Virus record (IMG/VR): IMGVR_UViG_2778261162_000007
DNA from: a virus
Lineage: Duplodnaviria; Heunggongvirae; Uroviricota; Caudoviricetes
Reading direction: 5' to 3' (one strand)
DNA: 47,425 nucleotides
The notes under the pieces are model-generated. The model did no database searches. It saw only the letters and a program-made list of their open reading frames with translations, and was not told the origin of the DNA. Made by a program: the position numbers and the translations under genes. Positions 9,313-39,050 of this stretch are shown piece by piece (the first letter of the stretch is position 1; the number at the start of each line of letters is the position of its first letter).

Positions 9313-10437
9313 ATGGTTAAGGCTAAAAATATGCCAAATCCCATGCCAAAAACTAAGGCAAACAATGAGCCTTATCGCAAGGTAAAAATAACGATATGGG
9401 ATGATCCCAAATTTAGGGCGTTATCTCCTCTGCCTCCAAGTGGACAGAGTTTGTTTATTTATCTGCTGACCAGTCCATTTACCGGGATTATTCCTGGGTT
9501 GTTTAAAGCCGGGCGGGCAGCAATGGCTGAAGAGTTGGGGTGGGATATCGAAGCCTTTGACTTAGCCTTAGGCGAAGCCATGAATCTTGGCATGGTGAAA
9601 GCAGATATCAAAGCCAGAGTTTTTTGGCTCCCGAATGCTGCGAAACACAATCCGCCAAACTCGATAAATGTCATTAAATCCTGGGCAAAGGCATTCGCTT
9701 TAATTCCTGATTGTCCTCTCAAATGGGAGGCCAGGGAATCGCTGAGAGCCGCGTCCTATGGGGTTTCTGAGGCTTTGGGGATGGCATTCGATAAGGCAAT
9801 CCCTTTGCCTGAGGATAAGCCTAAGGATAAGGCTAACGCTTTGTCATGCGGTATCCAGATAACAGATAACAGATATATAAACCCCACACATAACGCGCGC
9901 GTGCGCGAGAGTGCTCCGGCCAGTGAGGCAAATGGCGTGCCGTTGCAGACAGCGGAACCTGATTACCTGGAAGGCCTGAACGAACCCATCGGGAAATTTC
10001 CGATGACTGATGGCTGGCATCCGTCGCTGGATTTTCGACGGCGGGCAGCTCTGTGGGGAGTGGCTCTGCCGGAGCCGGAATTTACACCAGCTGAACTTGC
10101 CGCCTTCCGGGACTACTGGGCAGCGGAGGGGAAAGTTTTCACGCAGGTTCAGTGGGAGCAGAAATTCGCCCGTCACGTAAATCACGTCAGGGCGCAGGTT
10201 AAACCAGTCAGCAAGGGGGTGAACCATGCAGCAGCACCAGGTGGCACCGCATCACGGGCAGTTCAGGAAATTCGGGCAGCACGTGAGCAGTGGGAACGTG
10301 AAAACGGATTTATCAGCGACGGAAACGGCCTGGAAGTTGTGGGAACTCATGGGGGAGGTTTATTCGAACCGCTGGACCCAGAAGAACGGGGCCGCACCTT
10401 CGAAGCTCTGGATTGCACAGATTGGTGCGATGACTGA
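9313..10437 (+). CDS. Putative replication-module protein (possibly YdaU-like)
   Basis: Start [34 protein letters not shown] chosen inside the longer ORF-track form; no Walker motif seen. Confidence 0.4.
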
Positions 10438-10891
10438 GCAGCAAATCCGACAGGTCTGCCGCCAGTGCATGGACCGCTGCCGGACGGGTGAAACATGGCC
10501 TCCGGACCTGGCTGAGTTTGTGGCGCTGATTTCGGAAAGCGGGGCCAATCCATTCGGTCTGACGGTGGATGCTGTGATGGAGGAGTACCGACGCTGGCGC
10601 AACAAGTCCTGGCGATACGACGGAAGCGATAAATACCCGTGGTCTCAGCCTGTGCTGTATCACATTTGCCTCGAGATGCGTTCAAAGGGGATTGAGCGCC
10701 AGATGACCGAAGGGGAGTTAAAACGACTTGCAGAACGGCAACTGGCGAAATGGGCAAAGCATGTTGGTGACGGCTTCAGCGTTCCGCCCGTACGGCGGCA
10801 ACTGGCAGCACCAGAACGCCCGTCGGGGCCAACACCAATTGAGTTGCTGAAACAGGAATATGAACGCCGGAAAGCGGCTGGTTTTGTTTGA
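10430..10891 (+). CDS. Hypothetical replication-module protein
   Basis: ATGACTGA start/stop overlap with the upstream gene (translational coupling); [30 protein letters not shown]... Confidence 0.4.
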
Positions 10892-10924
10892 GTTGATAAG
10901 TAATTTTACCGGGAGCAAATTTTA

Positions 10925-11686
10925 ATGGAGACTGTTTTTGACGCACTGAAAGCAATGGGAAAAGCCACGTCGGTAGAACTCGCTGCGCGACTTGATATCA
11001 GTCGTGAAGAGGTACTGAACGAGCTGTGGGAACTGAAAAAGGCTGGTTTCGTTGATAAAAGCGTATACACCTGGCGTGTGGCTGATAACAACGTTCAGCA
11101 GGAACAGCCAGAGCAGGCAGAACTGCCGGAAGAAACCACCACAGCAACAGTAGCGAAAATCTCAGAGTGCGATTTAACCGCGACGATTGAACAACGCGGA
11201 CCACAAACGGCTGATGAGCTGGCTACATTGTTTGGTACCACATCACGCAAAGTGGCTTCAACGCTGGCAATGGCAATCAGCAAAGGTCGTCTGATTCGCG
11301 TAAATCAGGGCGGTAAATTTCGTTACTGCATACCGGGCGATAATTTACCAGCAGAGCCGAAAGCAGCATCGGTAGCGGAAACTGATGGTAAGGCTTTTCC
11401 TCAGCCCGCAGGTGTTGCGTTACCAGTACAGGAGGCTGCAACACAGGAAGAAATTAAAACAGATACTGTAGCGGACATTGTGCAGTCGTTGCCATCGTTT
11501 ACCGAAACGCGGGCGGATGATTTGATTTTGCCATCGCTGCATCTGGCAAACCGCAAACTGCGTCGGGCGAAAAGCCATGTCCAGAAGTGGGAGCGTGTCT
11601 GCGCCGCGCTGCGGGAGTTGAACAAGCACCGGGATATTGTTCGCCAGATTACTGATTCTTCCCGCTGTGTTGTATCGGAAAAGTGA
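10925..11686 (+). CDS. Hypothetical protein with two winged-helix-like segments
   Basis: 253-aa [33 protein letters not shown] and [32 protein letters not shown] look HTH-like. Confidence 0.4.
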
Positions 11687-12124
11687 TTGCCGGAGGCGCT
11701 TATGGCAAAAGTATTTACACAAGAAGAGCGGGAAAAAATTAAGGGGCAGGTTGTTGAACTCGTGCGCCAGAATGGGCGCGAGACGTTACGACAACTTGAA
11801 GCTAAGACAGGTGCGACAAGATATTTAATGAGCGTTCTCGCCAGAGAGCTGGTTGCCAGTGGCGATGTATATAACTCCGGCTACGGGCTATTTCCCTCTG
11901 AACAGGCTCGTAAGGACTGGCAAAACGCCCGCAAAAAACTATCGAGGGCAAAGGTGAAGAAACCTGCTGTAGTTGATCCGGACCTTATCTGGTCATTACC
12001 AGACGGAGAAATACGCCGCTATGACAGGCGTCTGAATATAATCTGTCGCGAGTGCCGGAAGAGCGAAGTCATGCAGCGTGTACTGGCGTTCTATCAGGGT
12101 AATTTTCAGGATGTGCTGTTGTGA
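11687..12124 (+). CDS. Hypothetical protein
   Basis: 145-aa ORF adjacent to the previous gene's stop. Confidence 0.35.
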   Translation: MPEALMAKVFTQEEREKIKGQVVELVRQNGRETLRQLEAKTGATRYLMSVLARELVASGDVYNSGYGLFPSEQARKDWQNARKKLSRAKVKKPAVVDPDLIWSLPDGEIRRYDRRLNIICRECRKSEVMQRVLAFYQGNFQDVLL

Positions 12125-12284
12125 GCCAAATTAACAATCAGGGAACTGCGTGAACTGAAAGAGAAATCATAATCCAAATCTGAATAATTAAATTTAGCAC
12201 TGTAAATAAAATTTAATCCTTAACCGGAGGGGGGGCTGCACCCTCAAAATATTAGGAGGCGGCCCGAAAGGGCGGTAATGAAAA

Positions 12285-12788
12285 ATGACTGAATTAACCA
12301 AAAAGCAATTAATCGAAGAAGCTAAATTAAAAATAGCGATTGAGAAATGCCACCCCAATTCAGGGATGGCATGGGTAGAGGGCGAATTATTCAAAATTGC
12401 TCTGGCATCTCTGGAAGCAGAGCCAGTTGGTGATTTTTATGAATACAAACCGGATGACTGGTATCAGCGTTCGGCTGGAGATAAAGCGCCAAAAAGGACG
12501 CCATCCTATGCCGTTTTTCCAGCGCCCGTAGTGCCGGAAGAAATGGATTTGCTTACATGCCATCTCGATGGTGTAACTGAAACATATGCTGAGGGATGGA
12601 ACGCTTGCCGCGCTGCCCTGCTTCAGGGCAAAGGGGAGCCCGGGAAACAAGTTCGCGAATTGACAATGCTGGTTAAACAATTGGTTAGTCAACTTAAGAA
12701 AGCGAAACCGGGCTGCAAATTGCCGGATAAAGTGATGGACTACCTGGAGCGAAGCGGACTTATAAGCGTGGAGGATGTTTTACGATGA
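12285..12788 (+). CDS. Hypothetical protein
   Basis: 167-aa ORF preceded by a small GNRA-type hairpin and RBS. Confidence 0.4.
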   Translation: MTELTKKQLIEEAKLKIAIEKCHPNSGMAWVEGELFKIALASLEAEPVGDFYEYKPDDWYQRSAGDKAPKRTPSYAVFPAPVVPEEMDLLTCHLDGVTETYAEGWNACRAALLQGKGEPGKQVRELTMLVKQLVSQLKKAKPGCKLPDKVMDYLERSGLISVEDVLR

Positions 12789-12868
12789 CCTGGTCTGAAG
12801 CATTCACAACGGTAGGAATTGCGATGGCGGTGGCGCTGGTGGTGTATTCGATTTGCCGCTGGGGTTGA
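12785..12868 (+). CDS. Putative small hydrophobic peptide (27 aa)
   Basis: MTWSEAFTTVGIAMAVALVVYSICRWG; start overlaps the upstream stop (ATGA); a single TM-like segment. Confidence 0.25.
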   Translation: MTWSEAFTTVGIAMAVALVVYSICRWG

Positions 12869-12908
12869 TAATACTAAATAACCAGCCCTTATGGGGCTGG
12901 CTAATCAT

Positions 12909-13682
12909 TTAGAACTGTTCATTGCCATCGAGGTTAGGTAGCATAATTTTTTCAATCAAGGCGAGAGCCTTTTTGTCCCGGTCAGCGAAGTATTTCGGGG
13001 CATATTGCGGCAACCAAATATTGTTAAAATGTTCTTTGAAATCTGCTAAATATTCATTTGGGTACAGCCTTGCAGGGTATACGCGACCATCGGGATATTC
13101 ATGGTCATAGGTAGGGAATGTTTTGGGTTCTACGTTTCTATTATCTCTTAACCATTGTGAAAATACTCTTCCTTGTGAAATGTCAGGAACCATTTTTTCT
13201 GGGAGTGTGTACCCTGCTTGTTCAAGAGGTGCAACCAAGTTGAATGTCAGTTCATTAAGAATAGAAAAGTGCGTGTGAGGAATTCTACTACGATTAACCA
13301 TGTACCGTTTTAAATGTACAGGCATTTCTGCTGTAGTTCTTTCCCCTGACATCCATTCACGAACCCATCTTGAAACCTGGACTGCAAATTTGGGCGATAG
13401 CCACTGCGCTAGATTAATAGCGATGTCAGGATGCACCCATGTCCCTTGGTTTTCAGGTCTTCCACCTTTAAATGATTGAATTAACTCCGATATGGGAATT
13501 CCCATATCGCGTGATAATTCGTCAAAAAACTCTTGAGTAGTTTTGAGTCTAGTGTAATCAGAGAGCAGTTTGCCCGCAGTTCTACACATTGATGTGGCGT
13601 TTATGTAACCATCTTTGGCACGTAAATGTATTATTTCGCCGTCAATTTCACGAGAAATCAAAGATAATTGAAAGGATGTCAT
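12909..13682 (-). CDS. KilA-N domain protein
   Basis: N-terminal region ...IHLRAKDGYINATSMCRTAGKLL...GGRPENQGTWVHPDIAINLAQWLSPKFAVQVSRWV matches the KilA-N pattern. Confidence 0.7.
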   Translation of the reverse strand: MTSFQLSLISREIDGEIIHLRAKDGYINATSMCRTAGKLLSDYTRLKTTQEFFDELSRDMGIPISELIQSFKGGRPENQGTWVHPDIAINLAQWLSPKFAVQVSRWVREWMSGERTTAEMPVHLKRYMVNRSRIPHTHFSILNELTFNLVAPLEQAGYTLPEKMVPDISQGRVFSQWLRDNRNVEPKTFPTYDHEYPDGRVYPARLYPNEYLADFKEHFNNIWLPQYAPKYFADRDKKALALIEKIMLPNLDGNEQF

Positions 13683-14204
13683 TGAAAATTCCTCAAGTTG
13701 GAGAGTTCTGGAACATTAAGGCGAGGTGGCCGTAATGCACCATCTGTAATCTTTTGATACTGACGTAATCGGGCCTGATGTGCAACGCCTTGCAAGTATG
13801 TAACTCATTGAAAACGATCATTTTTATCTATTGACATCAAATGGCAAACTGTCATTGTGCGGCTATGGCAAGTGGCAAATGCTTATAAATCATATGGATA
13901 TAAATAGTACAGAAAGAGTTGTTTTCTCTAGGATATGAGTATACGCCCAATGCTGATTGGTTGAATTTTGTTCTTGTTTTAAAGGGTAAGAGTTTAAAGT
14001 GTTGGCAGTGATGTATTGGATAGTTAGAATTGCTGTGGGTGCTTGAGGCTATCTGCCTCGGGCATGATCACCAAAGGTAGATAGAGAAAAGCCCCAGTTA
14101 ACATTACGCGTCCTGCAAGACGTTTAACATTAATCTGAGGCCATATCTATGCGACACATAGAGATTAGCCTCTTACGGACCGAAAGGTCAAGGAGAAGCA
14201 GGCT

Positions 14205-19232: not shown

Positions 19233-20021
19233 ATGAGCGAGAAATTGAAGATCGTCTATCGCCCGTTGCAAAAACTGTCTCCGTATGCGCACAACGCCAG
19301 GACACACAGCCCTGAGCAGGTGGCACAACTGGTAGAAAGCATTAAGCAATTCGGCTGGACCAATCCGGTGCTGATTGACGAAAAGGGCGAAATTATTGCT
19401 GGTCACGGTCGCGTGATGGCGGCTGAGGTGCTCAAAATGGATTCTGTTCCGGTCATTGTTCTGTCTGGCCTGACGGATGATCAGAAAAAGGCGTACCGCC
19501 TGGCAGATAATCGCCTGCCGCTCAACGCTGGCTGGGATGAAGAACTGTTACGGGTGGAACTGTCGGAGCTAATCAATGCTGATTTTGATATCTCCCTGAC
19601 AGGATTCAGCCCAACAGAAATTGATGAACTGTTGATGGAAGTTTTGCCAGGTACCGGAAATGAGGAGGAGCAGTATACGACGAAAATTGATACGCCTGTT
19701 TATGAGCCGTCGGGCGATAAACCGGATATCAGTGAACTGTACGACGATACGAAAACTCAGGAGCTGATCAGCCGGATACGTTCGGCGTCCCTTGAGCCTG
19801 ATATCGAAAAATTCCTCCTGTGCGCGGCAGAACGCCACACGGTGTTTAATTTCAGCAGAATTGCGGATTATTACGCTCACGCCCCCGCTGAAATTCAGCG
19901 CCTTTTTGAGGAGTCGGCGCTGGTGATCATTGATTATCAGCAGGCTATTGAAAATGGATTTGTCCGGATGACGCAGCACATGGTGGAGAGCATGCATGGC
20001 GGGGAGGAGGAATATGCGTGA
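19233..20021 (+). CDS. ParB-like nuclease domain protein
   Basis: N-terminal ...PNARTHSPEQVAQLVESIKQFGWTNPVLIDEKGEIIAGHGRVMAA..., a ParB N-terminal (ParB/Srx) pattern. Confidence 0.7.
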   Translation: MSEKLKIVYRPLQKLSPYAHNARTHSPEQVAQLVESIKQFGWTNPVLIDEKGEIIAGHGRVMAAEVLKMDSVPVIVLSGLTDDQKKAYRLADNRLPLNAGWDEELLRVELSELINADFDISLTGFSPTEIDELLMEVLPGTGNEEEQYTTKIDTPVYEPSGDKPDISELYDDTKTQELISRIRSASLEPDIEKFLLCAAERHTVFNFSRIADYYAHAPAEIQRLFEESALVIIDYQQAIENGFVRMTQHMVESMHGGEEEYA

Positions 20022-20946
20022 TGATTTTTGCGCCTTTATTCTGACTCACGGGCGACCGGACAAAGTTCTGACTTACCGGACGTTGCGTCGTGCTGGCTAT
20101 ACCGGGAAAATTTTTATCGTTGTTGATGATGAAGATAAGACACGGCATCAGTACATAGTTGAATTTGGTGAACAGGTGCTGGTGTTTTCCAAAGCCGATA
20201 TAGCCAGTCGTTTTGACGAAGCCGATAATTTCGGTGATCGCCGCTCAATTTTTTACGCCCGTAATGCCTGTTTCGACCTGGCAAAACTGGTCGGGTGTAA
20301 ATACTTCATTCAGCTCGATGATGATTATCACGAGTTCCAGTTTCGGGTGGATCGCAACTATGACCAGGCCTATTTCCCGATAAGAAAACTGGATGCGATC
20401 CTTTCTGAAATGCTGGCGTACTACGAATCAATACCTGCGCTTTCCATCGCTATGTCGCAGGGCGGGGATTTTCTTGGTGACAATGGCGGCCATGCTTCGT
20501 GGGTGAAACGCAAGGCAATGAACAGCTTTATCTGTTCGGTTGATCGACCGTTCTCATTCATGGGGCGCATTAACGAGGATGTGAATACGTACACGAATCT
20601 CGGTCGCTGTGGTGAATTGTTTATGACGATCGGTGCTGTCCAGTTAGGGCAGAAACAGACGCAGAAAAACAGCGGCGGAATGACCGAGCTGTATCTGGAT
20701 TCCGGAACCTACGTTAAAAGTTTTTACTCCGTCATGTATGCGCCCTCGTGCGTAAAAATCTCACTGATGGGGGCCAGCCATAAACGCATTCACCATCAGG
20801 TCACTTGGAACAACGCTGCAGTAAAAATCCTTCACGAAAAATACAGGAAGAAGACACCCTGCATATCAATGGGGGTGACAAATGATTCCGTATTCGAAAG
20901 TCGAGTCTCTGGCAGCGTGCCGGATGACTGCACAACAAATCGCTGA
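20014..20946 (+). CDS. Hypothetical GT-A-fold-like protein (putative nucleotide-sugar transferase)
   Basis: ATG overlaps the ParB-like stop; strong GGGGAGGAGG RBS; FILTHGRPD...IFIVVDDEDK and later QLDDDY resemble a GT2 N-terminal strand plus DxD motifs; no methyltransferase motifs and no TM segment. Confidence 0.4.
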   Translation: MRDDFCAFILTHGRPDKVLTYRTLRRAGYTGKIFIVVDDEDKTRHQYIVEFGEQVLVFSKADIASRFDEADNFGDRRSIFYARNACFDLAKLVGCKYFIQLDDDYHEFQFRVDRNYDQAYFPIRKLDAILSEMLAYYESIPALSIAMSQGGDFLGDNGGHASWVKRKAMNSFICSVDRPFSFMGRINEDVNTYTNLGRCGELFMTIGAVQLGQKQTQKNSGGMTELYLDSGTYVKSFYSVMYAPSCVKISLMGASHKRIHHQVTWNNAAVKILHEKYRKKTPCISMGVTNDSVFESRVSGSVPDDCTTNR

Positions 20947-21133
20947 CGTTCTGGATGTTGATCTGAACCGACTGAAAGAAAATCGGGAAGCAATGACAGA
21001 TTTTTACGCATCCATCCGTAAGGGCAGAGCGAAAGGTGAAGCCGAACTACGGGCGGCATTGTTTAAGCTTGCCAGAAAAGGGGATGCCTTTGCCCTGCGT
21101 GAACTACTCAGGGTGGATAAAAATCAGGACTAA
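20882..21133 (+). CDS. Hypothetical small protein upstream of terS
   Basis: 83-aa ORF overlapping the end of the upstream gene; the true start may be the internal MTAQQIADVL. Confidence 0.3.
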   Translation: MIPYSKVESLAACRMTAQQIADVLDVDLNRLKENREAMTDFYASIRKGRAKGEAELRAALFKLARKGDAFALRELLRVDKNQD

Positions 21134-21136
21134 CTA

Positions 21137-22228
21137 ATGAGCAGACCGGACTGGGGGGCGTTGCAGCAGGAATATATTGCTGAATACACCCGCTCCGGTG
21201 TATCTCCGGTGGCATGGTGTGAGGCAAGGGGACTGAATTACGCAACAGCCCGTCGTTACATCAAAAAACCTCCGAAAAATGCGCAGACAGAAATGCGCAA
21301 AACTGCGCAACAAAGTGCGCAGAAAAAATCTGCGCAGACTGCGCAAAAGCGGAACGGAAAATCTCAGAAAAAAAAGCCAGTATCCGATGCGTGCCTGAAT
21401 GAGGGCGACGCGGAGGAATTTTCGTTCTGCCCCGATGAATTCGGCATTTCTGACCAGCAGGCTAAGTTTGCGATGCTTGTTGCTCAGGGGAAAAAGCCGA
21501 CAGAGGCATACCGACTGGCTGGTTATGAGGGGCAAGGTGCGACAGCTAACAGCAACGCCAGCCGTATGCTTAGAAATGCCAGGGTTTATCGTGCTATCAG
21601 CTACTTCCGCAATCAGTATCAGAAACGCTATACCGCAGACCTGGATTTACTGGTGAGTCAGTTGATGGCTATTGTCCAGGCCGACCCCAATCAGTTGGCA
21701 CAATTTCGCCGTGTTAACTGCCGTTATTGCTGGGGCGAGAATCATCTCTACCAGTGGCGTGATATTGCAGAATTCGATAAGGCAGCGGCACAGGCCTCCA
21801 GAGATGGCAAACCCGAGCCGGAATATGGAGGCCTCGGCTTTGTTGATAACGCCATACCCAATCCGGATTGTCCGAAGTGCTGCGGTGAGGGAACGGGACA
21901 GCTTTATATGGCTGATACCACTCTGCTTGATGGGGATGTGCGACAATTATATGCAGGGGCAAAGCTCGGGAAATTTGGTGTTGAGATCCTGCTGGAGGAT
22001 AAGGCTGCCGCCCGGCGCGAACTTATCAAGCTGATAATGGCGACGAAAGGAAGTTCTGCTGGTGGTGCAACTGACAGTCGCAATGATCTGGAGCTTGAAG
22101 GACTGAGGCTTCGCAACGAAAAGCTGCGCACTGAGATTGAAAACCTCAAAAAAGGCGTGGGTGGTGAGAATAACGAAATAATTATCCACAACTCTCTGCC
22201 GATGCCGGGAGTGGATAATGTCGATTGA
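21137..22228 (+). CDS. Terminase small subunit
   Basis: Central ...QQAKFAMLVAQGKKPTEAYRLAGYEGQGATANSNASRMLRNARVYRAI matches the small-terminase HTH pattern; immediately upstream of the large terminase. Confidence 0.7.
   Translation: MSRPDWGALQQEYIAEYTRSGVSPVAWCEARGLNYATARRYIKKPPKNAQTEMRKTAQQSAQKKSAQTAQKRNGKSQKKKPVSDACLNEGDAEEFSFCPDEFGISDQQAKFAMLVAQGKKPTEAYRLAGYEGQGATANSNASRMLRNARVYRAISYFRNQYQKRYTADLDLLVSQLMAIVQADPNQLAQFRRVNCRYCWGENHLYQWRDIAEFDKAAAQASRDGKPEPEYGGLGFVDNAIPNPDCPKCCGEGTGQLYMADTTLLDGDVRQLYAGAKLGKFGVEILLEDKAAARRELIKLIMATKGSSAGGATDSRNDLELEGLRLRNEKLRTEIENLKKGVGGENNEIIIHNSLPMPGVDNVD
21280..21345. repeat. Cluster of six palindromic TGCGCA hexamers inside terS (candidate pac/TerS-binding site)
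   Basis: TGCGCA at about 21280, 21294, 21304, 21316, 21331 and 21340, spaced 9-15 bp. Confidence 0.5.
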
Positions 22229-23546
22229 AATCTACCTCCCAAAACCTCATGAGGGGCAAATAGCTGCATGGACGGCGGCAATAGAGGAACGCTTCCACGC
22301 GGTATGCTGTGGTCGTCGCTGGGGTAAAACGGTGATGCTGGTAAACATCGCTACCAGTTTCGCTACGCGGAAATTTGCCGTTCCTACCACCGGGCAACTT
22401 ATCGCGGGTAGGGTGGGGATTTTTACCGCACAATACCGCCAGTACCAGGAAATCTGGGATGAAATTAGCGCCGTTCTGCAACCGCTGATCCTCAGCCAGT
22501 CAAAAAATGAAAAGCGCATTATTCTCCGTAATGGGGGGCGCATCGACTTTTGGGTAACGGACAATAACAAACTGGCCGGGCGTGGGCGTAAATATCACGC
22601 TGTGCTGATTGATGAGGCAGCATTCACTAAATCGCCGGAAATGCTCGAGGAAATCTGGCCCCGAGCTATACGCCCGACGCTTGTCGATTACCGCGGCTGT
22701 GCGTGGGTATTTTCCACACCAAACGGTATCGACGAGAGCAATTTTTTCTACGCGATATGCCACGATGAATCCCTGGGATTTGTCATGCACCATGCGCCAA
22801 CTTCATCGAATCCGTATATTCCGAAAGAAGAACTGGAGGAAACGGAGAAGAAATCCGATCCGCGCGTCTGGCAGCAGGAATATCTTGCCGAGTTCGTGGA
22901 CTGGTCCAAAGACGCGTTACTCGATGTCGATAAGCTGCTGGTGGACGGTCAGCCGATTGAGATGCCGCCGTACTGCGACATGATTTTCGCAGTGATGGAT
23001 ACGGCGCTGAAAGGCGGGACCGAAAATGATGGTACTGGCGTGTTGTATTTCGCTTATGAGTCAACGTATTCGGAAGAGCCAAAACTGACGATTATTGACT
23101 GGGATGTTACGCAAATTAAAGCGTCATTGCTTCCTGAATATATCCCCGGCGTTTATGACAACCTTGAGCGCCTCGCGAAATTATGCCGTCCGCGTCTGGG
23201 CAGCCAGGGAATTTTTATGGAAGACGCCGCGATGGGGGCAATCCTCAACCAGAAGGCGGAAACCGAAGGCTGGGATATGACGCCGATTAAATCGGCACTA
23301 ACCAGCAAGGGCAAAGACGAACGGGCGGTGATGGCATCCAGCTACCACTATCAGGGGATGTGCAAAATCGTCCGGGAGGCTTACGACAAGACCGTTTCAT
23401 TCAAGCGCACCACCGCAAACCACCTCATAAAACAAATCGCCGGATTCCACCTGGCGGATAAAGACGCGCATAAACGTGCTGATGACCTTTTCGATTGTTA
23501 CACCTATGGATTGATCATCGCGCACGGTAATTACGCGGAGTTGTAA
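22218..23546 (+). CDS. Terminase large subunit
   Basis: Walker A-like CGRRWGKT near the N-terminus; 442 aa; position. Confidence 0.88.
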   Translation: MSIEIYLPKPHEGQIAAWTAAIEERFHAVCCGRRWGKTVMLVNIATSFATRKFAVPTTGQLIAGRVGIFTAQYRQYQEIWDEISAVLQPLILSQSKNEKRIILRNGGRIDFWVTDNNKLAGRGRKYHAVLIDEAAFTKSPEMLEEIWPRAIRPTLVDYRGCAWVFSTPNGIDESNFFYAICHDESLGFVMHHAPTSSNPYIPKEELEETEKKSDPRVWQQEYLAEFVDWSKDALLDVDKLLVDGQPIEMPPYCDMIFAVMDTALKGGTENDGTGVLYFAYESTYSEEPKLTIIDWDVTQIKASLLPEYIPGVYDNLERLAKLCRPRLGSQGIFMEDAAMGAILNQKAETEGWDMTPIKSALTSKGKDERAVMASSYHYQGMCKIVREAYDKTVSFKRTTANHLIKQIAGFHLADKDAHKRADDLFDCYTYGLIIAHGNYAEL

Positions 23547-23560
23547 AAATCAGGATATTT

Positions 23561-25000
23561 TTGATGGCAGAGATCGAGATTACTGGCGGCCTCGGTTCAG
23601 CACTGATGCATATTCTTGAGGCTGAAGAAATTCAGCCGGGAACCGACATTGGCTATGAATTGTGTAAGCAGCTGTGGCAATTCCATCCTCTGGGCGGAAA
23701 ACTTGTCGAAAAACCCATACTTATGGCGATGTGTAAGCCGCGTCAGTACAACGTGGAGACAGACCCTGACGAGCGGGTTGTGCGGCGTTTCCAGGAGGTA
23801 TGGGAACGTATGAAGGTTAACGAGAAGATTAAAAATCTGTTTTTTCTGTCTCGTTGCTACGGTGCCGCAGCGATCGGCGTGGGCACCGACAGTGTTCCAT
23901 GTCGTGAGCCGCTTCCGACATTCGGACTGACAGAAGATGATGTGTATATCAACGCGTGGGACCCGTTGAACGCTTCTGGTTCGATGGTGACTGACCAGAA
24001 CCCAAACAGCCCGTTTTTCCAGGAAGCCAATAAAAAGCTGAAGATTGGCGGAAAAGACTGGCATCCGTCACGCACACTGAAAATTTTCAATGGCACACCG
24101 ATTTATCTGGAGTTTCAGAGTTCATCGTTCGGATTCACCGGGCGAAGCGTGTTTCAGCGCGTTCTTTATTCCCTGAAATCCTATATCAATACGATGGAGG
24201 CGAATGATCTCGTCAGCCAGAAGGCAGGCGTGCTGGTGGCTAAAGTTGTGCAGTATGGTTCGAAACTTGACGGGATCATGGCTGCCGCCACGGGACGAAA
24301 AAGGGAAAATGTCAAAGAGGCAAAAAATAAAGGTGTGCTTAGTATCGGGAAGGATGAGGACGTTACCTCGCTGAATTTACAAAACATCGATGGCGCGCTA
24401 AATGCCGCCCGCGACAACATTATTTCCGATATTGCATCAGGTAGCGATGTTCCCGCGATTCTCATCAAGGAGGAGGCTTTCTCGAATGGTTTCGGTGAAG
24501 GAACCGAGGACTCGAAAGCCATCAGCCAGTATATCGATGGTGTACGCCAGCAGATTGAACCTGTGATGGATTATTTCGAACGCCTGGTGCAGTACATCGC
24601 CTGGAACGAGGAATTTTATCAGTCGCTGAAAAATGATTACCCGGACATCATAACCGAGGACTATAAAACCACGTTTTACCAGTGGCGGCGCGAGTTTACC
24701 GCGACGTGGCAGGAGCTGGTGGAGGAGTCGCCGGACAAACGCCGGGAAAGCGACAGTAAAGTGATTCAACAGGCGATAGCACTTTTCTCTGCCGTGTCGC
24801 TACAGGTTGATCCTGAAAACCGTGCCGCCGTCACTGAATGGCTGGCAAGCCTTGTTAATGCCACGCAGACCTATGGCGAAGCTCCACTCATCATTGATGT
24901 GGACGCCCTGGCGAATTATGAACCACCGAAGCAGGAGACGCCTGATGGCAATTTCCAGCCGGGCGGGGAGGAAGAAGAAACGGATCAGGACGCTGTATGA
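23561..25000 (+). CDS. Portal protein
   Basis: 479-aa ORF directly after the large terminase; acidic C-terminus. Confidence 0.75.
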   Translation: MMAEIEITGGLGSALMHILEAEEIQPGTDIGYELCKQLWQFHPLGGKLVEKPILMAMCKPRQYNVETDPDERVVRRFQEVWERMKVNEKIKNLFFLSRCYGAAAIGVGTDSVPCREPLPTFGLTEDDVYINAWDPLNASGSMVTDQNPNSPFFQEANKKLKIGGKDWHPSRTLKIFNGTPIYLEFQSSSFGFTGRSVFQRVLYSLKSYINTMEANDLVSQKAGVLVAKVVQYGSKLDGIMAAATGRKRENVKEAKNKGVLSIGKDEDVTSLNLQNIDGALNAARDNIISDIASGSDVPAILIKEEAFSNGFGEGTEDSKAISQYIDGVRQQIEPVMDYFERLVQYIAWNEEFYQSLKNDYPDIITEDYKTTFYQWRREFTATWQELVEESPDKRRESDSKVIQQAIALFSAVSLQVDPENRAAVTEWLASLVNATQTYGEAPLIIDVDALANYEPPKQETPDGNFQPGGEEEETDQDAV

Positions 25001-38901: not shown

Positions 38902-39050
38902 ATCACAGTTTTATGATAAAACTTTTACCTTGGTTTGGAGTGCTGTAGAGAGATATTTTAGGGGGGCGAGTAATTTTCTAAGCTGGAGCATATTGACATA
39001 TATTATTTCGGATTTGCAAAATACATATTGTTACCATGGAGGAGACAAGC

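What the first reader, a model, noticed from the sequence alone, without database searches (positions are those of the whole stretch)
21280..21345. Six palindromic TGCGCA hexamers packed into 66 bp inside terS: candidate pac site
The hexamer TGCGCA, which is its own reverse complement, occurs six times at 9-15 bp spacing within the small-terminase coding sequence, where it encodes an AQ/K-rich low-complexity stretch. pac sites of headful-packaging phages (P22, Sf6, P1, SPP1) lie within or next to terS and consist of short repeated motifs. This density is far above chance for a 6-mer.
Basis: seen in the sequence. Interest (0 to 1): 0.5.

Follow-up and report, generated by a model that had tools for sequence, protein, structure and literature searches.

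The report
P1-style packaging-site repeats inside terS
Six copies of TGCGCA inside a prophage's small-terminase gene are very probably the DNA address that the same protein's own N-terminal DNA-binding domain reads to start genome packaging, a relative of the phage P1 pac site that uses a different six-base word.

Summary
TGCGCA occurs six times in 66 bp at 21280-21345, against 19 in the whole 47-kb window. This is the densest hexamer cluster in the window.

It lies in the disordered-linker codons of terS (21137-22228) of a Rac-like lambdoid E. coli prophage. The signal is in the DNA, not the protein. Synonymous-codon resampling expects 0.7 copies and never reached 6 in 5000 trials. One copy sits in a different reading frame, and across relatives the hexamer is found in all three frames.

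The array always follows a ~45-aa N-terminal helix-turn-helix domain that is homologous to the N-terminus of P1 PacA. P1's pac site is likewise a set of hexamers (TGATCA/G) inside pacA.

In 148 distinct homologous sequences, the recognition helix and the hexamer change together with no exception:
- TARRYIK goes with TGCGCA.
- TAKRYIK goes with TGCGAA.
- TARTRIK (933W Stx phages) goes with [CT]GATCAT.

The module sits on at least three unrelated TerS bodies.

The pac-site reading is therefore well supported by comparison, but no packaging ends were mapped. I rate it a new variant of the P1-type pac: no Dam site, a single cluster, and an unrelated TerL.

The parts
21280..21345 (.). Array of six palindromic TGCGCA hexamers (starts 21280, 21294, 21304, 21316, 21331, 21340). 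Proposed TerS recognition element of pac.
21270..21380 (+). A-rich setting of the array (44% A and 9% T on the coding strand, six A-tracts of 4 or more). Family-wide context is AAAnTGCGCARAA.
21137..21271 (+). Codons 1-45 of terS: PacA-N-like three-helix HTH domain, the proposed reader of the hexamers.
   Evidence: AF2 helices 6-20, 24-30 and 35-38 with pLDDT 72-80. hhalign against P1 PacA N-terminus: probability 92%, E 5.7e-7. PHROG cross-hits phrog_370 and phrog_1711.
21251..21253 (+). Codon for Arg39 (CGT) in the recognition helix ...NYATARRYIK. This residue covaries with hexamer position 5: R goes with C, K goes with A.
21272..21421 (+). Codons 46-95: disordered K/A/Q-rich linker whose DNA carries the array. 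Copy number varies through indels among close homologues.
   Evidence: pLDDT below 50 for residues 49-95. Protein length variants of 351-364 aa all map here. Array variants.
21431..21616 (+). Codons ~99-160: second HTH, of the Terminase_2 (SPP1 G1P-like) type, belonging to the TerS body.
   Evidence: Pfam PF03592 at aa 122-311, E 7e-9. pLDDT 73-84.
21137..22228 (+). terS, small terminase, 363 aa.
   Evidence: phrog_51, E 2e-71.
22218..23546 (+). terL, large terminase (Terminase_6N), which would make the cut. Not related to P1 PacB.
23561..25000 (+). Portal protein.
   Evidence: Pfam PF06381.

Best explanation
The six TGCGCA hexamers are the recognition part of this prophage's pac site. TerS carries an extra N-terminal HTH domain of the P1 PacA type on a flexible linker, and the DNA that encodes that linker holds an array of the HTH's own binding sites. 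After late-gene expression, several HTH domains of a TerS oligomer occupy neighbouring hexamers on concatemeric or in-situ prophage DNA. The hexamers are spaced 9-15 bp apart and set in A-tracts. The resulting nucleoprotein complex recruits TerL, which cuts nearby and starts a series of headful packaging events. Arg39 of the recognition helix most likely contacts the G opposite C5 of TGCGCA.

Shown here: the cluster exists, the selection is at the DNA level, the domain is homologous to PacA, and helix and hexamer change together.

Inferred: physical binding, oligomer wrapping, the site and direction of the cut, and headful packaging by this particular phage.
For: - Local density has P of about 1e-8.
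- Synonymous resampling gives 6 observed against 0.70 expected, 0 of 5000; the known P1 pac behaves the same way, 7 against 2.1.
- In 108 distinct family sequences, 593 TGCGCA copies fall in all three reading frames (462, 111 and 20). Spacings are irregular at 7-16 bp with a mode of 12, and the linker peptides are not conserved.
- Helix and hexamer are coupled without exception: RRY with TGCGCA 92, RRH with TGCGCA 4, HRY with TGCGCA 1, KRY with TGCGAA 11. Forty further distinct sequences agree: RTR with GATCA 13, RRY with TGCGCA 5, KRY with TGCGAA 21, plus one divergent TAKRYIK hit (44% identity) with 2 TGCGAA.
- K-type and R-type domains can be identical over aa 1-35 (L109/L063 and L118/L075). 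On an NJ tree the K state is scattered, with 9 Fitch changes.
- The same module occurs on at least three unrelated TerS bodies, and one body type carries all three specificities.
- Homology to P1 PacA is supported. The P1 record shows hexamers at the equivalent place in pacA, flanking the mapped cleavage sites. P1 pac is 161 bp with seven TGATCA/G repeats, and synonymous mutation of them lowers P1 titre about 9-fold (PMC10028697).
- 933W, which carries the module, is a generalized transducer with a probably terminally redundant chromosome (PMC3752737).
- In the reverse scan, 78 of 120 TGCGCA-triplet viral contigs belong to this family.
Against: - No experimental end-mapping or binding data exist for any TGCGCA-class or TGCGAA-class phage.
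- Residue 39 lies only about 25 bp from the first hexamer, so physical linkage and cassette transfer can produce part of the covariation without any function.
- P1 PacA has the same RRY triplet yet uses TGATCA, so the proposed 'code' is incomplete.
- Among near-identical E. coli prophages, single hexamers are often mutated, leaving 4-6 intact. Purifying selection on each copy is therefore weak, or many of these prophages are decaying.
- The window has a single cluster and no strict IHF consensus within 20900-21900. P1 has two clusters around an IHF site and the cut.
- TerL shows no similarity to PacB.
Confidence: 0.72

Rival explanations
1. The repeats are a by-product of a low-complexity A/Q/K-rich protein linker that grew by replication slippage. 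Under this view the hexamer has no role as DNA.
For: The region encodes a disordered linker. Copy number changes through in-frame indels among close homologues. Unrelated coding tandem repeats (AAQ, GAQ collagen-like, pentapeptide) also produce TGCGCA triplets in some viral contigs.
Against: - Given the same peptide, only 0.70 hexamers are expected, and 0 of 5000 resamples reached 6.
- One copy in the window, and 131 of 593 in the family, lie in other frames and encode different residues such as MRK, KLR and KCA.
- Spacing is irregular, so this is not a tandem unit.
- The hexamer stays constant while the peptide and its length drift, and it switches together with the HTH helix.
Confidence: 0.05
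2. The array is a binding site for the TerS N-terminal HTH, but it serves as an operator that autoregulates terS/terL expression or late transcription rather than marking the start of packaging.
For: The comparative data show only that the HTH and the hexamers belong together, not what the binding achieves. The site lies inside the gene it would regulate.
Against: - In P1, the homologous domain-plus-array is the genetically and biochemically defined pac site.
- The protein is a terminase subunit in every body type.
- An operator of 4-10 sites inside a coding region, downstream of the start codon, is an unusual design for repression.
- The two roles are not mutually exclusive.
Confidence: 0.1
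3. The self-complementary hexamers act in the mRNA, forming hairpins that control translation or stability of terS.
For: RNA of 21255-21375 folds at -37.7 kcal/mol against -20.4 +/- 3.0 for shuffles, z = -5.8.
Against: - This stability is an automatic consequence of repeating a palindrome.
- The TGCGAA class is not self-complementary. The Pmp11 array of 9 copies folds no better than shuffles, z = +0.63, yet keeps the same architecture.
- The number and spacing of copies vary freely, so no pairing scheme is conserved.
Confidence: 0.03
4. The hexamers are targets of a restriction-modification or DNA-modification activity. TGCGCA is the FspI/MstI-type site (from memory), and a ParB-TAGT modification module lies just upstream. 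Under this view the hexamers act as a decoy or control point rather than a terminase site.
For: A TAGT glycosyltransferase and a ParB-like protein lie immediately upstream. In P1, hexamer methylation controls cleavage.
Against: - No DNA methyltransferase, TET or hydroxymethylase was found among the window ORFs that were scanned.
- The array follows the HTH domain into phages that lack the ParB-TAGT genes, such as the Yersinia, Klebsiella, Pasteurella and Stx phages.
- It switches sequence with the HTH helix.
Confidence: 0.03

Closest known systems
Bacteriophage P1 pac site and PacA (pacase small subunit)
   Same: - Hexanucleotide repeats lie inside the small-subunit gene, about 140-230 nt from its start, in codons for a poorly conserved stretch.
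- The N-terminal HTH domain is homologous (hhalign probability 92%, E 5.7e-7; PHROG cross-hits).
- Both hexamers have the form TGnnCA.
- Codon bias creates the hexamers in both.
   Different: - The hexamer is TGCGCA rather than TGATCA/G, so it holds no GATC and cannot be controlled by Dam methylation.
- There is one cluster of six rather than 4 + 3 flanking an IHF site and the cut.
- The rest of TerS is a Terminase_2 body unrelated to PacA.
- TerL is unrelated to PacB.
- The host element is a lambdoid prophage, not a P1-like plasmid prophage.
TerS of 933W-like Stx phages (phrog_370)
   Same: Same N-terminal domain (51% identity; phrog_370 hit at aa 1-85), with an array in the same position. 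933W is a generalized transducer whose chromosome is probably terminally redundant (PMC3752737).
   Different: The recognition helix is TARTRIK. The array is 4-5 copies of [CT]GATCAT at an exact 12-bp period and contains Dam sites. The TerS body is different. I found no paper that describes this array.
SPP1/SF6 G1P-type small terminase and pacL/pacR
   Same: The TerS body belongs to Pfam Terminase_2 and has an HTH at aa ~99-160. A-tract-rich DNA bound by a ring of HTH motifs is the general model for this class (PMC4737164, listed; the rest is from memory).
   Different: As I recall it, SPP1-type recognition relies on multiple weak, largely sequence-independent contacts and DNA bending. Here an additional HTH domain is paired with an exact repeated hexamer.
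P22 and Sf6 pac sites
   Same: They lie inside the terS gene of headful-packaging lambdoid or P22-like phages (PMC11260489).
   Different: P22 uses one asymmetric site of about 22 bp rather than a repeat array. Its TerS fold lacks the PacA-N-type domain. The resemblance is analogy only.

Membership tests
P1-type pac (PacA-N HTH plus intragenic hexamer array) | Repeated hexanucleotide elements located inside the small terminase/pacase gene. | tested here: met
   Six TGCGCA in terS codons 48-70. P1 has seven in pacA codons ~65-117.
P1-type pac (PacA-N HTH plus intragenic hexamer array) | The small subunit carries the PacA-type N-terminal HTH domain. | tested here: met
   hhalign probability 92%, E 5.7e-7 over 39 columns. 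Reciprocal weak PHROG hits between phrog_1711 (PacA) and phrog_370/phrog_51 members. Shared LN-x-x-TARRY(I/L) motif.
P1-type pac (PacA-N HTH plus intragenic hexamer array) | The hexamers contain GATC, and cleavage is controlled by Dam methylation. | tested here: not met
   TGCGCA has no GATC. The only GATC in 20900-21900 is at 20960. No DNA methyltransferase was found in the scanned window ORFs.
P1-type pac (PacA-N HTH plus intragenic hexamer array) | Bipartite layout: two hexamer groups flanking an IHF site and the cleavage site. | tested here: not met
   Single cluster. No exact or one-mismatch group within about 400 bp. No WATCAANNNNTTR match in 20900-21900. Some relatives (KpST846phi9.2, PHB10, PhiR12_3) do have a small second group.
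P1-type pac (PacA-N HTH plus intragenic hexamer array) | The partner large subunit is PacB-like. | tested here: not met
   BLASTP of window TerL against P1 PacB: best E 0.82.
P1-type pac (PacA-N HTH plus intragenic hexamer array) | The terminase cleaves at or next to the array, and packaging proceeds in one direction from it. | not testable with these tools
   This needs virion DNA end mapping. No such data were found in the literature searches.
pac site of a headful-packaging phage (general) | The phage has a headful-type terminase and makes terminally redundant, permuted genomes. | tested here: inconclusive
   TerL matches Terminase_6N (T4-like N-terminal domain) just above threshold, 23.6 against 22 bits. 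A relative's TerL is annotated as T4-like headful. 933W, which has the same TerS module, transduces. Nothing is known for this prophage itself.
pac site of a headful-packaging phage (general) | The sequence is specifically recognised by the cognate TerS. | tested here: inconclusive
   Supported only indirectly, by exception-free helix-hexamer covariation in 148 distinct sequences.
Pfam Terminase_2 small terminase (SPP1 G1P-like) | Match to PF03592 above the gathering threshold. | tested here: met
   36.8 bits against a cutoff of 26.1, aa 122-311.

The most novel reading that the evidence does not exclude
The PacA-N HTH together with the hexamer array encoded in its own linker is a portable, self-addressed packaging cassette with a partly readable recognition code. 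Arg39 pairs with C5 in TGCGCA and TGATCA. Lys39 pairs with A5 in TGCGAA. R-T-R in place of R-R-Y pairs with GATCA. The cassette has been grafted onto at least three unrelated small-terminase bodies in Enterobacterales, Pasteurellaceae and Aeromonas phages, including the 933W Stx phages and prophages in about one in six complete E. coli genomes. If this holds, pac sites and packaging specificities could be read directly from sequence for hundreds of prophages. In the Stx phages, whose arrays carry GATC, packaging could be Dam-gated as it is in P1.
Probability: 0.55. Interest if true: 0.7.

Novelty: new variant of a known kind. Interest (0 to 1): 0.62.

Why it matters
pac sites are known experimentally for only a handful of phages. 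Their absence blocks prediction of generalized and lateral transduction, of satellite or plasmid mobilisation, and of phage genome ends.

If this reading is right:
- A sequence-only rule (find the PacA-N domain, then read the hexamers that follow it) locates the packaging start in a very common class of E. coli and Salmonella prophages. The terS region matches 902 of 5426 complete E. coli genomes.
- The same rule applies to Klebsiella, Yersinia, Pasteurella and Aeromonas phages and to the 933W-type Shiga-toxin phages.
- The R/K to C/A switch offers a natural pair of apparently orthogonal packaging specificities. These could be used for phagemid or cosmid-like delivery systems.
- It gives a simple system for studying how a ring of HTH domains reads a repeat array.
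- It extends the P1 paradigm, known since the late 1980s, beyond P1-like plasmid prophages and separates it from Dam control.

Tried and rejected
- **Pfam on the N-terminal 100 aa:** no family. P1 PacA gives only sub-threshold HTH_23, HTH_28 and HTH_Tnp_1 hits.
- **PDB sequence search:** no useful relative for TerS or TerL.
- **AlphaFold2 of full TerS with a shallow 13-sequence alignment:** mean pLDDT 47.6. Only the two HTH regions are usable. Foldseek against PDB with that model gave nothing significant, best E 2.
- **Literature searches:** TGCGCA + terminase; pac + Stx phage; 933W + headful; PacA + Shiga; PacA + 933W; the Yersinia phage paper; lateral-transduction papers. None describes this array or maps ends for a family member.
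- **LF82 prophage Gally:** it has a mapped pac peak in terS, but its TerS is a different 140-aa type, so it gives no direct support.
- **Identity of the window:** I first took it to be E. coli EC11 because of a 100% match over 819 bp. The EC11 annotation shows a different early region and a truncated ynaK, so the window is a related mosaic prophage and not that record.
- **Clustering on the C-terminal 130 aa:** single-linkage clustering merged the body types. I replaced it with coverage-filtered clustering.
- **Second hexamer group or IHF site, as in P1:** none found in the window.
- **Population-level check:** I looked at whether hexamer positions are more conserved than spacers among near-identical E. 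coli arrays. Both vary, so this gives no clear signal at that depth.

Full report
**1. The observation**

The window has TGCGCA at 21280, 21294, 21304, 21316, 21331 and 21340. The 47,425-base window holds 19 copies in all, which is what dinucleotide-preserving shuffles give (19.45 +/- 4.17). The hexamer is therefore not enriched overall, but nearly a third of its copies sit in 66 bp.

With the window-wide rate, a 66-bp span expects 0.024 copies. P(>=6) is 2.9e-13, or about 1e-8 after allowing for every start position. A scan of all hexamers in all 66-bp spans shows this is the densest cluster in the window; nothing else exceeds 4 copies. Start-to-start spacings are 14, 10, 12, 15 and 9 bp, so this is not a regular tandem repeat.

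**2. Setting**

The array lies in codons 48-70 of a 363-aa ORF at 21137-22228.
- This ORF is a small terminase: Pfam Terminase_2 at aa 122-311, 36.8 bits against a 26.1 cutoff, and phrog_51 at E 2e-71.
- It is followed by TerL (22218-23546, Terminase_6N) and a portal gene (23561-25000).
- The window is a Rac-like lambdoid prophage. An integrase-like ORF lies at the left end. In the closely related EC11 prophage the early region is annotated recE/recT, racR, kilR and ydaS/T, with a ynaK-type ParB gene upstream of terS. Tail and baseplate genes lie to the right.
- The 819 bp around the array match 902 of 5426 complete E. coli genomes. One of them, EC11, is identical over that stretch but differs elsewhere.

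AlphaFold2 with a shallow alignment gives confident structure only for residues 1-45 (three helices, pLDDT 72-80) and about 99-160 (pLDDT 73-84). Residues 49-95, which the array encodes, are predicted to be disordered.

**3. DNA-level or protein-level signal?**

Five hexamers are read as xxT-GCG-CAR (N/T/S-Ala-Gln) and one as A-TGC-GCA-AA (Met-Arg-Lys).

I kept the peptide fixed and redrew synonymous codons from the window's own usage. This gives 0.70 hexamers on average and never more than 4 in 5000 draws, against 6 observed. The same test on relatives and on the experimentally defined P1 pac site gives the same kind of result (P1: 7 observed, 2.1 expected, 0 of 5000).

Across 108 distinct family sequences, 593 TGCGCA copies fall in all three reading frames (462, 111 and 20). 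They encode A-Q, L-R, M-R, C-A and so on. The flanking consensus is AAAnTGCGCARAA. The peptide and its length drift while the hexamer stays exact. The signal is therefore in the DNA.

**4. What travels with the array**

Distant TerS proteins that share only the first ~45 residues with this one all carry a hexamer array just downstream. The shared sequence is M-x-x-P-D-W-G-x-L-Q...G-I-S-P-K-D-W-C-E-A-Q-G-L-N-Y-x-T-A-R/K-R-Y-I-K.

I collected 137 loci from IMG/VR and from one-genome-per-species GTDB contigs using this domain, and 88 more using two divergent versions of it.
- Every intact locus with helix [TS]ARRY[IV]K (or RRH or HRY) has 4-10 TGCGCA and at most one TGCGAA/TTCGCA, except L119 (helix TARRHIK), which has 4 TGCGCA and 3 TGCGAA/TTCGCA.
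- Every locus with [TS]AKRYIK has 4-9 TGCGAA or its complement, and at most one TGCGCA.
- Every TARTRIK locus (933W-type Stx phages) has 4-5 [CT]GATCAT.
- That makes 148 distinct sequences with no exception.

The K and R forms can be identical over residues 1-35 (L109/L063 and L118/L075). The K state is scattered over a neighbour-joining tree of those residues, with 9 parsimony changes, although a 35-residue tree is weak.

The module is attached to at least three unrelated TerS bodies, and one body type carries all three specificities.

In the reverse direction, I scanned IMG/VR for TGCGCA-N3-9-TGCGCA-N3-9-TGCGCA. Of the first 120 contigs returned, 76 have the domain within 600 nt and 2 more are cut at a contig end. 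The rest are coding tandem repeats or high-GC sequence.

**5. Link to P1**

The N-terminus of P1 PacA ([41 protein letters not shown]) aligns with the domain profile at 92% probability, E 5.7e-7. PHROG profiles of PacA (phrog_1711) and of the 933W and window TerS families cross-hit over the same ~90 residues.

In the P1 record the pacA gene contains TGATCA x4, then the mapped cleavage sites and an IHF site, then TGATCG/TGATCA x3. All of this lies 195-350 nt into the gene. A paper on P1 phagemids summarises the classical work: pac is 161 bp inside pacA and holds seven TGATCA/G repeats with Dam sites, which PacA and PacB bind. Recoding the repeats synonymously cut P1 titre about 9-fold (PMC10028697; see also PMC11260489).

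The window's array is thus the counterpart, by homology of its reader domain and by position, of a proven pac site. All Arg39 classes have C at hexamer position 5 (TGCGCA, TGATCA, CGATCA), and the Lys39 class has A (TGCGAA). This fits an Arg-guanine contact, but that is an inference.

**6. Most likely mechanism**

TerS oligomers present several N-terminal HTH domains on flexible linkers. These domains occupy adjacent hexamers, whose modal spacing is 12 bp in A-tract-rich DNA. The complex recruits TerL, which cuts nearby and begins headful packaging.

933W, a carrier of the module, is a generalized transducer whose packaged chromosome appeared terminally redundant (PMC3752737). This is consistent with headful packaging in this group. 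Binding, the cut site and the packaging direction are not shown for this phage.

**7. Differences from P1, and caveats**

- TGCGCA has no GATC, and no DNA methyltransferase was found among the window ORFs I scanned. P1-style Dam gating therefore cannot apply.
- The window has a single cluster, with no second group and no strict IHF consensus nearby.
- TerL is unrelated to PacB, and the TerS body is Terminase_2-type.
- P1 has the same RRY helix triplet but reads TGATCA, so other residues must set positions 3-4.
- Residue 39 is about 25 bp from the array, so linkage and cassette transfer inflate the covariation.
- Among near-identical E. coli prophages, single hexamers are often mutated, leaving 4-6 intact. 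This suggests either redundancy or decay.

**8. Rivals**

- A slippage-generated linker is contradicted by the codon and frame tests.
- An mRNA structure (z = -5.8) is the trivial result of repeating a palindrome. It is absent from the non-palindromic TGCGAA class (z = +0.63).
- A modification or restriction role is not supported, because the array follows the HTH into phages that lack the upstream ParB-TAGT genes.
- An autoregulatory operator cannot be excluded, but it is less likely given the P1 precedent, and it could coexist with pac function.

**9. Novelty and verdict**

I found no paper that describes TGCGCA or TGCGAA arrays, the GATCAT array of 933W-type TerS, or the homology of these TerS N-termini to PacA. 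The library searched is incomplete, so absence there is not proof.

I classify the finding as a new variant of a known kind: a P1-type, HTH-read hexamer pac site with a new word, no Dam control, a single cluster, and a different terminase chassis. Confidence that it is the TerS recognition element of pac is about 0.7. Interest is 0.62.

Noticed in passing
window 19233-20946: A ParB_N-domain protein (phrog_620; it also resembles the N-terminal part of ParB-methyltransferase fusions, phrog_498) overlaps a TET-associated glycosyltransferase (Pfam TAGT E 2e-34; phrog_842 'beta-glucosyl-HMC-alpha-glucosyltransferase' E 2e-102), directly upstream of terS. No TET/JBP, hydroxymethylase or DNA methyltransferase was seen in the ORFs scanned. 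This suggests a possible DNA-glycosylation module in a lambdoid prophage without its usual partners.
   Followed up: partly
window 20882-21133: An 83-aa ORF immediately before terS matches the middle of another small-terminase family (phrog_309 positions 145-218 of 319, E 2e-22) and has no Pfam hit. It may be a remnant or an accessory packaging protein.
   Followed up: partly
L145 (phage 933W) 1620-1670; L271-L309: 933W-type Stx phage TerS has the same N-terminal domain with helix TARTRIK. It has four to five [CT]GATCAT repeats at an exact 12-bp period, encoding IDHEIDHKTDHEIDH. These contain Dam sites, as the P1 pac hexamers do, which suggests Dam-gated packaging in Stx phages. One or two TGCGCA persist about 100 nt further downstream.
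   Followed up: partly
L003 1860-1903, L004 1848-1865, L007 1792-1809: Some relatives (Klebsiella ST846-OXA48phi9.2, E. coli PHB10, PhiR12_3) have a second small group of 2-3 TGCGCA lying 65-200 nt downstream of the main array. This recalls P1's bipartite pac. The window has none.
   Followed up: partly
L247 and L264 (IMG/VR contigs): Two other HTH-containing proteins ('...SEATARGYISKL...' and '...GVSDNTVKKI...') are also followed by TGCGCA triplets in their coding sequence. They may be more distant examples of the same reader-plus-array design.
   Followed up: no
window 39036-40211 and 45695-47179: A protein with a type I restriction HSDR_N domain is embedded in the baseplate module. A YadA-like trimeric autotransporter adhesin gene sits at the right end of the prophage.
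   Followed up: no
L149 (E. coli EC11) 10287-13181 compared with window ~12200-13700: EC11 is identical to the window across terS, but it carries a DNA cytosine methyltransferase and an ATP-dependent nuclease where the window has a KilA-N gene, and its ParB gene (ynaK) is truncated. This shows mosaicism among Rac-like prophages that share one packaging module.
   Followed up: partly
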